A DNA stretch of 64,000 nt. It comes from Escherichia coli. GTDB lineage: Bacteria; Pseudomonadota; Gammaproteobacteria; Enterobacterales; Enterobacteriaceae. Positions 3,001 through 6,000 of this stretch are shown here, piece by piece (position 1 is the stretch's first letter; every line of letters begins with the position of its first letter). The DNA is taken from the NCBI RefSeq assembly GCF_030013595.1, contig NZ_CP122768.1. One strand, written 5' to 3'. Position numbers: made by a program.

Positions 3001-6000
3001 CAACCGTATATCTCTCGATCCACAAGGAATGGATGGCGATGCCGAGCTGGTCGACAGTGAAAAACAGGTAGCACCGGTTGCAGGTGCGGCGGTGAAAGTA
3101 GTCTTCCGTACCCGTCCCGGTAAAGCGCTGCTGATTAAATCCCGCATGGCAGATGGTTCGGAACTGCCAATGGGAGCCGATGTGCTGGATGAGAATAATA
3201 CGGTCGTCGGTATAGCCGGTCAGGGGGGACAAATTTACCTCCGCACAGAACAGACAAAAGGCCATTTGTCAGTTCGCTGGGGTGAAGGCGCTAACGATAG
3301 CTGCCAGTTGCCCTTCGATATCAGCGGGAAAGACAGCAATAGCCCTATCATCCGCCTGAATGAAACCTGTCAGTCTTGATACAGAGAAAACCCGATGTCT
3401 AAATCGACTTTTTTACACATTCTGATTAGCTCCATCATATTGGTGGCACTAATACAATCATCCGCCTGGGCCACTTGTTCTAATACACGTGTCGGACAAA
3501 CGGAGGACGGAAGATCGGCACTCATTGAGTTCGGAAAAATTAATATGACCGACACCTATTTTGCGCCAGTAGGCTCGCTACTCGCGACAACGGTCGTCCC
3601 TTCCACTAACTACACATCAGGTGGCGCGTCAGGAAGCTCCGTACTGTGGGAATGTGACGCAACAGATTTGCCAAACATCTATTTTCTGGTCGCTACCAAT
3701 GGCGATGACCGCGTGGGTGGCTTTCACAATGCAGGCGGGCCTGATGGTCTGAGTGATGTCTATGCCACCTGGTTTGCTTTTGTCGGTCTCAAGCAGACCA
3801 TGGCGGGTGTGACGCTTGGTCGTTACTGGAAGAAAGTGCCCATCACCAGTTATGCCACTCAGGGAACTAAAATCCAGATCCGTTTACAGGATATCCCTCC
3901 TCTTCATGCTGAACTTTATCGTATTAGTACTCTGCCTGATACCGCAGGCGCAACCAGTTACTGCGGTAATACCAATACTGATGGCGACGGTGTGGGGTAT
4001 GCTAAACCCTCCGGCACACCTTATAACTGCACTCAGCCTAATGCCTATATTCAGCTTTCCGGTACCAGTGGTATTCCATTTGCTCATGATGAAGTGGGAG
4101 AGGACAGTGCGGATCACTATGATTTTTGGGGTGTTGATAATGGTTTTGGTTACGGAATGCGATCGGCAAATCGACTCTACAACAATGCCACCTGCGTTGC
4201 CCGCAGCGCCACGCCGCTAGTATTGCTGCCGACAATTGCAGAAGCACAACTGAATGCGGGCATGGAAAGTACCGCTAATTTTAATGTCCGCGTCGAATGC
4301 AGTAACTCAGTTCAATCAGGGATTAGCGATACTCAGACAGCATTAGGAATCCAGGTGTCTGAAGGTGCATATACAGCAGCGCAAAAACTGGGGATTATCA
4401 ATAGCAACGGCGGCGTCAGCGCCCTGGTCTCTGATAATTATGACGCAGCAGAGATGGCAAAAGGCGTTGGGATCTATATTTCTAACAGTGCTCACCCCGA
4501 TACGGCGATGACGCTGGTTGGTCAACCAGGCATCGCGAAGTTAACCCCGGAGGAAATTCAGCGGGGTGGTATCCTGTATTTGAAGGGGCAACATTAGAAG
4601 GGGCGACTCACCCCGGATACTCCAGCTATAGTTACTCTTTTATCGCCCGGTTGAAGAAACTGCCAAATCAGACAGTCAGTGCGGGAAAAGTGCGGGCAAC
4701 GGCGTATATATTGGTGAAAATGCAATGAAATCCGTTTTGCTGCTCTTAACCGTCTTGTTCGTACAGTCAGTGGAAGCCGGCATCATGCCGGCTTCTTCAC
4801 GGATTATTTATCGCGATGGCGATCGGGAAAAGACACTGATGCTGGTCAATACCAATGACTACCCGGTACTGGTGCAAAGTTGGGTAGATAATGGTGAAGG
4901 CTCCCCAGAAGCTGCTTCTCCCCCCTTTGTGGTGCTGCCACCGGTTTTCCGCCTGGCAGCGAAACGAACCCAAGGGTTGCGGATTATCTATAATCATGAC
5001 CCACTTCCCCAGGATCGCGAATCTGCATTCTGGTTAAATCTTTATGAAATGCCGCCAGAAACTCCCCATCAAGATCCCACACATTTAACGCTGGCAATGA
5101 ATACGCAACTTAAAATCTTTTACAGGCCTAAATCTGTAACTATGACACCTGAAGAAGCTATGCGTAAAATAAGTTGGCATCTGGGTAACGACGGCAGCAG
5201 CAGCTATATTGAGCTTAATAACCCAACACCACTGAATATCTCTTTCACCTCCATTAGCATTGGGGCTACGAAGGTACAGCAAGAAAGCGATATGATGATA
5301 AAACCCTTCAGTCAACGACGGTACTGGTTAGCAAGTAATAACGTTAGTGGTGTGGTTGCCGCGACATATCTCGATGATAATGGTTCACAGATAAAGCAAC
5401 AATTAGCGCAATAATGCTCTGAGTGGTATGTAAACTCATCGCGATGGTTCAACGCTAACGAATAACCACTATACCTACCTGAAGTACCGGAAGTGGAGAA
5501 ATGACAAAATCTCTCCACTCCATTTTCCAGTCAAAACACCTCAACGCAGCCAAAAATCGTTAACGAATTGAATATCCACCATCAATAACTAATAGTTGTC
5601 CATTGACATAATCTGAAGCGGCACTGGCGAGGAACACCATTGCACCCATAAGATCCTGTGCCCTTCCCCAGCGTTGAGCTGGTATACGCCCTTTTATTAA
5701 CTCTTTTATTTTAGGGTTATTATAAATAATCGCTGTCATTTCACTCACATAATATCCTGGGGCGATACCATTGATCTGAATATTATATTCCGCAAAATCA
5801 TCGGCATACGCTTTGGTCAGCCCCGCTAAAGCATGTTTAGTCGCAGCATACCCTGGCGACCAACGTCCTCCATGAAATGACAATACTGAACACATATTAA
5901 TAATTTTCCCTTTTTTTGCGGGACAAATATATTCAATGCGGCCTGGCTCATATCGAATGCAGCATTCAGGTTGAGATTAATCATCGGATCCCAGTCGTTT

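What the first reader, a model, noticed from the sequence alone, without database searches (positions are those of the whole stretch)
5826..5930. Short-chain dehydrogenase gene inactivated by a 1-nt change in an A-run
The two halves of an SDR gene are in frames offset by one nucleotide and both read KKGK across an A7 tract (plus-strand T7 at 5911-5917). An A8 tract would give a continuous ORF (…VPQKKGKIINMCSVLSFHGG…). This is either a genuine slippage-generated pseudogene, a phase-variable or frameshifting site, or a homopolymer sequencing error.
Basis: seen in the sequence. Interest (0 to 1): 0.35.

Follow-up and report, generated by a model that had tools for sequence, protein, structure and literature searches.

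The report
One-base frameshift in accessory dehydrogenase gene
An accessory E. coli short-chain dehydrogenase gene is broken by loss of one A from a run of eight, either through an ordinary recent mutation or through a sequencing miscall, and it is not a conserved recoding or switching device.

Summary
A KduD-like SDR gene (minus strand, 5560-6341) is split at an A7 tract (5911-5917). Adding one A restores a 260-aa protein identical to WP_024229589.1. The window is E. coli, and the gene lies in an accessory fimbrial islet next to dgcT-pgaABCD. Most of the 400 complete-genome carriers have an interrupted tract (CAA AGA AAA GGG). A small clade gained A8 by a G>A (R143K) change: 6 have A8, 1 has A7 and none has A9. 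Clonemates of the window (0-2 SNPs per 12-22 kb) all have A8 and an intact gene. Only the window and one sibling assembly (GCA_030347985.1) have A7, and they also share a C5>C4 frameshift in the neighbouring fimbrial gene. The window has no other indel in 62.7 kb, but the sibling assembly is error-prone, so real slippage (about 0.5) and base-calling artefact (about 0.38) cannot be separated without reads. The deletion automatically leaves A_AAA_AAG in frame, with the C-terminal half in the -1 frame. A small unprogrammed translational leak of full-length enzyme is therefore plausible. There is no stimulator and no conservation, so programmed frameshifting and phase variation are not supported. 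The finding is ordinary and of low interest.

The parts
5560..6341 (-). Whole disrupted SDR (KduD-like) gene, 782 nt instead of 783
   Evidence: Same coordinates as the PGAP 'frameshifted' pseudogene in 2012C-4221. The only differences from the intact MEI003 gene are one deleted A and one synonymous substitution.
5826..6341 (-). Zero-frame product as written: 171 codons plus stop. Residues 1-146 are authentic (TGxxxGxG at 23-30, NNAG at 99-102), followed by 25 out-of-frame residues. It lacks the catalytic Ser, Tyr165 and Lys169.
   Evidence: alignment to KduD structure 4z9y
5560..5910 (-). C-terminal part of the gene in the -1 frame, carrying the catalytic Ser (151-155 region), Tyr165 and Lys169. 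Gene callers list it as a separate 111-aa ORF from the ATG at 5895.
5911..5917 (-). A7 tract (T7 on the plus strand). It is A8 in all clonemates and in the closest complete genomes.
5910..5916 (-). A_AAA_AAG heptamer in the zero frame (last base of Q142, then K143 and K144). It is an automatic by-product of A8>A7 in this codon phase. A -1 slip here yields exactly the A8-allele protein.
   Evidence: Reading with the codon phase (6341-5918 = 141 codons)

Best explanation
This is a recent, lineage-private loss-of-function frameshift. Shown: in a sub-clade of E. coli a G>A substitution (Arg143>Lys) turned an interrupted tract (AAAGAAAA) into a perfect A8 run inside an otherwise well-conserved accessory SDR gene. 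Inferred: in the immediate ancestor of the window's strain and its sibling isolate, replication slippage removed one A. Shown: as written, translation ends after 25 out-of-frame codons, before the catalytic Ser/Tyr/Lys, so the main product is an inactive Rossmann-only stub. Inferred: because the deletion leaves A_AAA_AAG in frame with the rest of the gene in the -1 frame, a small unprogrammed fraction of ribosomes should slip and make the full-length wild-type-sequence enzyme. That fraction is on the order of 0.1% to a few percent. Rare RNA polymerase slippage may add to it. The gene would then be a leaky young pseudogene and not a regulated recoding site.
For: Allele series and census: (A8 in 6, A7 in 1, A9 in 0 of 400 carriers). 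The gene is normally under purifying selection, with dN/dS 0.03-0.12. Even so, it is lost repeatedly by unrelated lesions in other assemblies: nonsense at codon 133 (twice), nonsense at codon 142 (twice), a 14-nt deletion and a +A insertion. Loss is therefore tolerated. The window is otherwise very accurate. Against HCP5S3_I2 it has only 2 one-base indels in 62.7 kb, and 253 of 255 runs of 5 nt or more are unchanged. The unchanged runs include three other 8-mers, all 7-mers and all G/C 6-7-mers. A different isolate of the same clone (GCA_030347985.1, which has pgaC::IS903 instead of pgaB::IS10) has 0 substitutions against the window in 22 kb and shares exactly these two contractions. The chance of that overlap if the two were independent is about 0.001 (5 of 131 runs changed there). 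The same clone shows other indisputably real loss-of-function events nearby: IS10 in pgaB, IS903 in pgaC, and a pgaC T6>T5 frameshift seen in 3 samples. On leak: A_AAA_AAG is the most shift-prone -1 heptamer in E. coli and is reported to give more than 1% frameshifting in native non-programmed contexts (PMC5009743; PMC10861913). It gave at most about 10x a 0.055% background without a stimulator in a reporter (PMC4066793). Single-base deletion mutants were rescued to active enzyme at C_AAA_AAA in pDEST17 (PMC1851650).
Against: All short-read-type draft clonemates (L022-L025, L028; 0-2 SNPs per 12-22 kb) have A8 and C5. Two indels would therefore have to arise on a branch with no substitution in 22 kb. 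The only assembly that shares A7 and C4 on the same background (L026) has three further private homopolymer contractions in 22 kb and so is error-prone. The exact A7 product (171 or 174 aa) is absent from about 15 billion catalogued proteins, while the A8 product is on 529 contigs. The other shortened-run cases do not give independent support. TA124 is one strain whose two assemblies differ from each other only at homopolymers and disagree on the run lengths here (A6/A4 in the deposit, A7/A3 in the re-assembly). ERR12767400 shortens every long run in its 3.4 kb contig. The status of the A7 in 2012C-4221 is unknown. No reads are available.
Confidence: 0.5

Rival explanations
1. Homopolymer base-calling or assembly artefact. 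The strain really has A8 (and C5 in the fimbrial gene), the SDR gene is intact, and the frameshift exists only in the deposited sequence.
For: Every clonemate draft has A8 and C5. Both of the window's only indels are one-base homopolymer contractions, the classic residual error of long-read or flow-based sequencing. The same two sites are contracted in demonstrably error-prone data: L026 has 5 contractions in 22 kb, and ERR12767400 has every G/C run of 5 or more plus the T8 contracted. The exact A7 and C4 products are not found in any clean public assembly. A fully resolved IS10 inside the window suggests a long-read assembly. There are no private substitutions on the branch that would carry the two indels.
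Against: The window has no other indel in 62.7 kb. Eight longer G/C runs (6-7 nt) and three other 8-nt A/T runs are correct, so a length-dependent error process does not explain a C5 error together with one of four 8-mers. Both indels coincide with those of an independent isolate (P about 0.001 under independent errors). Six of seven long-read-era complete genomes of the A8 clade call A8 correctly, so the site is not a universal systematic error.
Confidence: 0.38
2. Phase-variable (contingency) switch. The A8 tract is a reversible ON/OFF slippage switch for the SDR gene, and the window shows the OFF state.
For: Contraction of the same tract appears on at least two haplotype backgrounds (window with HCP5S3_I2, 2012C-4221 with MEI003), and possibly a third (TA124). 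The neighbouring genes are surface structures, where phase variation is common.
Against: The tract is interrupted (AAAGAAAA or AAAGAAGGGG) in about 393 of 400 carriers, so it is not a conserved feature. Among perfect-tract genomes, 6 have A8, 1 has A7 and 0 have A9. The intact A8 product is on 529 contigs and the A7 and A9 products on none. An 8-nt A run is short for an efficient switch in a mismatch-repair-proficient E. coli (established knowledge). An SDR enzyme is not a typical phase-variable function.
Confidence: 0.04
3. Programmed -1 ribosomal frameshifting (dnaX-like). The A7 form is the functional arrangement and produces a truncated and a full-length SDR in a set ratio.
For: A_AAA_AAG is in the zero frame with the remainder of the gene in the -1 frame, and the trans-frame product equals the intact protein.
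Against: The heptamer is an automatic consequence of deleting one A from CAA AAA AAA GGG. There is no Shine-Dalgarno-like element 10-14 nt upstream (sequence). There is no hairpin 5-9 nt downstream, and the 121-nt fold has z = -0.17. The arrangement is absent from orthologues (1 of 400) and from clonemates. The zero-frame product lacks all catalytic residues.
Confidence: 0.03

Closest known systems
KduD / gluconate-5-dehydrogenase branch of classical SDRs (closest solved structure 4z9y, 2-deoxy-D-gluconate 3-dehydrogenase)
   Same: The repaired protein aligns end to end (residues 10-258, E=1.8e-58). It has TGxxxGxG, NNAG, catalytic Ser, and YxxxK.
   Different: It scores below the curated equivalog cut-offs (295.8 bits against 369 for PRK06935; 250.5 against 338.85 for TIGR01832). 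It lies in a fimbrial islet and not a pectin or hexuronate locus, so the substrate is unknown. RefSeq calls it only 'SDR family oxidoreductase'.
E. coli dnaX A_AAA_AAG -1 programmed frameshift site
   Same: Identical slippery heptamer in the zero frame, with the continuation in the -1 frame.
   Different: No upstream SD-like or downstream stem-loop stimulators, no conservation, and the zero-frame product is non-functional.
Non-programmed frameshift suppression at A-rich heptamers (A_AAA_AAG in ordinary E. coli genes; pDEST17 C_AAA_AAA rescue of 1-nt deletions)
   Same: A single-base deletion sits next to or inside a lysine-codon A run, where ribosome slippage regenerates the normal protein (PMC10861913, PMC1851650, PMC5009743).
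   Different: Not measured here. The expected level is low because there is no stimulator (PMC4066793).
Substitution-created hypermutable A8 tract (human APC I1307K)
   Same: One base substitution creates a perfect A8 run that then becomes prone to replication and transcription slippage giving frameshifts (PMC5009743). Here a G>A (R143K) change created A8, and contractions follow in up to three lineages.
   Different: A different organism and gene. Recurrence here may be partly a sequencing artefact.

Membership tests
Classical SDR, KduD-like | N-terminal TGxxxGxG cofactor motif and NNAG | tested here: met
   TGAAGELG at 23-30 and NNAG at 99-102 of the repaired protein; Pfam adh_short E=2.8e-50
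Classical SDR, KduD-like | Catalytic Ser...YxxxK encoded in the same reading frame as the N-terminus | tested here: not met
   Ser (151-155 region), Tyr165 and Lys169 lie after the frameshift at codons 143-144 and are in the -1 frame in the window
Classical SDR, KduD-like | Score above the NCBIfam KduD equivalog cut-off | tested here: not met
   295.8 bits against 369 (PRK06935); 250.5 against 338.85 (TIGR01832)
Programmed -1 ribosomal frameshift (dnaX type) | X_XXY_YYZ heptamer in the zero frame with the downstream ORF in the -1 frame | tested here: met
   A_AAA_AAG at 5910-5916 on the minus strand
Programmed -1 ribosomal frameshift (dnaX type) | Stimulatory elements: upstream SD-like sequence and/or downstream stem-loop or pseudoknot at 5-9 nt | tested here: not met
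   The upstream 15 nt are AUAUAUUUGUCCCGC. The nearest stable hairpin starts about 47 nt downstream, and the fold has z = -0.17
Programmed -1 ribosomal frameshift (dnaX type) | Frameshift arrangement conserved among orthologues | tested here: not met
   1 of 400 complete-genome carriers, and all clonemates are in frame
Simple-sequence-repeat phase-variable locus | Perfect repeat tract maintained across strains | tested here: not met
   The tract is interrupted by G in about 393 of 400 carriers
Simple-sequence-repeat phase-variable locus | Frequent tract-length polymorphism in both directions among close relatives | tested here: not met
   A8 in 6, A7 in 1, A9 in 0; A7 and A9 products absent against 529 contigs with A8
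Homopolymer assembly artefact | Run length differs from that of near-identical genomes sequenced independently | tested here: met
   L022-L025 and L028 have T8 and C5, with 0-2 SNPs per 12-22 kb
Homopolymer assembly artefact | Assembly shows a general excess of homopolymer indels | tested here: not met
   2 indels in 62.7 kb, and 253 of 255 runs of 5 nt or more unchanged
Homopolymer assembly artefact | Not reproduced in an independent isolate or read set | tested here: inconclusive
   Reproduced in sibling GCA_030347985.1, but that assembly has 3 extra contractions in 22 kb.

The most novel reading that the evidence does not exclude
The R143K substitution created a new A8 tract that now acts as a reversible evolutionary switch. 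The A7 'off' allele would still be expressed at a low, physiologically useful level through -1 slippage at A_AAA_AAG, making it a 'pseudo-pseudogene' caught at birth.
Probability: 0.05. Interest if true: 0.4.

Novelty: already known. Interest (0 to 1): 0.1.

Why it matters
It matters little for biology. A strain-private one-base contraction of a homopolymer in an accessory enzyme gene is routine, whether real or an artefact. It does serve as a worked example of how a single substitution creates a slippage-prone A8 tract. It also shows that such a deletion automatically creates a dnaX-like heptamer that should not be mistaken for programmed recoding. The practical point for annotation is that the gene should be flagged 'frameshifted', and reads should be checked before it is called a pseudogene.

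Tried and rejected
- **Short census queries.** 56-57-nt BLAST queries returned nothing because of low-complexity masking. I repeated them with a longer left flank.
- **Public collection scans.** Exact-pattern scans of species-representative genomes and JGI metagenomes for the A6-A9 tract found nothing. The window's source and a metagenomic census could not be obtained.
- **Exact-product look-ups.** The window's 171-aa and 174-aa N-terminal fragments are not on record.
- **ERR12767400 contig.** It has A7 and C4 and at first looked like independent support. I rejected it because it is a different strain (4 SNPs) and shortens every G/C run of 5 nt or more plus the T8.
- **Common descent of A7 in 2012C-4221 and the window.** Rejected on SNP patterns, because each groups with a different A8 genome.
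- **Search for a frameshift-stimulating RNA structure.** Negative.

Full report
**1. Observation.**
The minus strand between 6341 and 5560 encodes a short-chain dehydrogenase/reductase. At 5911-5917 there are seven A. The upstream frame reads ...NIFVPQKKGKLLICVQYCHFMEDVGRQGMLRLNML* and stops at 5826. The downstream frame reads ...PAKKGKIINMCSVLSFHGGRWSPGYAATK... through to 5560. The downstream part is in the -1 frame relative to the upstream part.

With one extra A the 260-aa product matches SDR profiles in a single uninterrupted stretch (Pfam adh_short_C2 E=4e-52; best NCBIfam hit KduD PRK06935, 295.8 bits, below its 369-bit cut-off). It aligns over residues 10-258 with the KduD structure 4z9y.

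The break is at codons 143-144. That is after the cofactor motifs (TGAAGELG at 23-30, NNAG at 99-102) and before the catalytic Ser, Tyr165 and Lys169. The product as written is therefore catalytically dead.

**2. Where the window comes from and what relatives show.**
The window is E. coli chromosome. The gene lies in an accessory islet (usher, 444-aa fimbrial protein, chaperone, SDR, winged-helix regulator, YqeJ-like protein, EAL protein) next to dgcT-pgaABCD. The islet is present in 401 of 5,426 complete genomes.

Aligning the tract across alleles gives a series:
- CAA AGA AGG GGC in divergent alleles.
- CAA AGA AAA GGG in the majority allele (shown for O55:H7 CB9615; the O157:H7 genomes sit at the same identity level).
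- CAA AAA AAA GGG (A8, R143K) in a small clade.
- A7 in the window.

Among the 400 complete-genome carriers, exact A8 occurs in 6, A7 in 1 (2012C-4221, where PGAP says 'frameshifted') and A9 in none. All the rest have an interrupted tract. Intact alleles give dN/dS of 0.03-0.12, so the gene is normally under purifying selection.

**3. Is it a conserved recoding or switching device?**
Deleting one A from CAA AAA AAA GGG necessarily gives CAA AAA AAG GG. That is the dnaX heptamer A_AAA_AAG in the zero frame (5910-5916) with the rest of the gene in the -1 frame. A -1 slip would regenerate exactly the A8 protein, because both frames encode KKGK.

This is a by-product of the deletion and not evidence of design:
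- There is no SD-like element upstream and no hairpin at the right distance. The local fold is unremarkable, with z = -0.17.
- The arrangement is absent from orthologues and from clonemates.
- Phase variation is also unsupported. The perfect tract is a recent minority state, there is no A9, and the A8 protein is catalogued on 529 contigs while the A7 and A9 products are on none.

A low, unprogrammed leak is still plausible. A_AAA_AAG is the most shift-prone -1 site in E. coli (PMC5009743). It is reported to give more than 1% frameshifting in ordinary genes (PMC10861913, citing Gurvich et al.). Without a stimulator in a reporter, heptamers gave at most about ten times a 0.055% background (PMC4066793). 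One-base deletions next to C_AAA_AAA in pDEST17 were rescued to active enzyme (PMC1851650). Efficient RNA polymerase slippage is documented for runs of 9 (PMC5009743), so a run of 7 should contribute little.

**4. Real mutation or artefact?**
(a) Against its nearest complete genome (HCP5S3_I2, A8), the window has only two one-base indels in 62.7 kb. They are C5>C4 at 4545, which truncates the 444-aa fimbrial protein to 400 aa, and T8>T7 at 5911. Of 255 runs of 5 nt or more, 253 are unchanged. The unchanged runs include three other 8-mers, one of them inside the same gene, and all G/C runs of 6-7 nt.

(b) SNP patterns show that A7 in the window and in 2012C-4221 lie on different backgrounds, each with an A8 sister. 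TA124 (A6) and its re-assembly from SRR024331 (A7 plus A3) differ from each other only at homopolymers, so that case is unreliable.

(c) I used a private C39S change in the neighbouring 163-aa protein, and the window's PgaA variant, as lineage markers. These recovered clonemates that differ from the window by 0-2 substitutions per 12-22 kb. All draft clonemates covering the sites (L022-L025, L028) have A8 and C5, with intact 260-aa and 444-aa genes.

(d) One assembly, GCA_030347985.1 (a 4.69-Mb contig), has no substitution against the window in 22 kb and shares both contractions. It is a different isolate, with no IS10 in pgaB and an IS903-type insertion in pgaC. It also carries three more private homopolymer contractions, so it is error-prone.

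(e) Both of the window's changed runs fall within that sibling's five changed runs out of 131. This is very unlikely under independent errors (about 0.001). It implies either shared ancestry of real mutations or shared systematic miscalls.

(f) A Logan contig from ERR12767400 also shows A7 and C4. It belongs to another strain and shortens every long run, so it is uninformative.

Weighing the two readings:
- **For a real mutation:** the cleanliness of the window, a pattern that is not length-dependent (a C5 is hit while C6, C7 and G7 runs are spared), the sharing with a sibling isolate, and the abundance of indisputably real loss-of-function events in the same clone.
- **For an artefact:** intact clonemates, no substitutions on the branch that would carry two indels, and the absence of any clean-read confirmation.

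I put the real mutation at about 0.5 and the artefact at about 0.38.

**5. Independent evidence that loss of this gene is tolerated.**
The 111-aa C-terminal fragment is called as a separate gene in 29 blocks of the public collection, of which 24 contigs were read. Among the ten places shown, the causes are diverse: nonsense at codon 133 (two assemblies), nonsense at codon 142 (two), a 14-nt deletion, and an extra A in the interrupted tract. Others are indels typical of noisy assemblies. The gene is therefore dispensable in some lineages.

**6. Comparison with known systems and verdict.**
The protein is a KduD/gluconate-5-dehydrogenase-like classical SDR of unknown substrate. It fails the KduD equivalog cut-offs.

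The site looks like dnaX but fails the tests for stimulators and for conservation. It fails the tests for a contingency locus. It resembles non-programmed frameshift suppression at lysine-codon runs. In its origin it resembles the substitution-created A8 tract of human APC I1307K (PMC5009743).

The finding is an ordinary homopolymer frameshift, and it needs read-level confirmation before the gene is called a pseudogene. Interest is low.

Noticed in passing
window 15644-16972 (9-bp target duplication GGTCTGGTT at 15635-15643 and 16973-16981): A 1329-bp IS10 with a 402-aa transposase splits pgaB. It is absent from all clonemates examined and from HCP5S3_I2.
   Followed up: yes
window 14535-19300 (pga operon); L026 14723-15779; L028 14465 (= window 17905): Within one near-identical clone the pga operon is inactivated three independent ways: pgaB::IS10 (window), pgaC::IS903-type, 1057 bp with TSD GGAAACCAT (GCA_030347985.1), and a T6>T5 frameshift near the 5' end of pgaC (GCA_021649105.1, contig seen in 3 samples). 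This suggests selection against PGA exopolysaccharide production in this clone, and it is arguably more interesting than the SDR frameshift.
   Followed up: partly
window 4545-4548 (gene 3395-4597, + strand): A C5>C4 contraction truncates the 444-aa fimbrial (adhesin-like) protein to 400 aa. It is shared only with GCA_030347985.1, and clonemates have C5. It has the same real-or-artefact uncertainty as the SDR tract.
   Followed up: yes
window ~37447-37488: Length polymorphism of about 66 nt in the small stress-protein gene ymdF (con-10 family): 108 nt in HCP5S3_I2 and 174 nt in 2012C-4221. The window carries extra sequence relative to HCP5S3_I2.
   Followed up: no
L001 4628-5449 (2012C-4221; equivalent to window 7027-7848): In the other A7 genome, the winged-helix regulator next to the SDR gene carries an internal stop and torS is frameshifted. 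In the window the regulator is intact (273 aa).
   Followed up: no
L012 versus L014 (E. coli TA124 deposit versus Logan assembly of SRR024331): Two assemblies of evidently the same strain differ only at homopolymers in 6.3 kb (including A6/A4 against A7/A3 at the SDR tract). This shows how unreliable run lengths are in that data set.
   Followed up: partly
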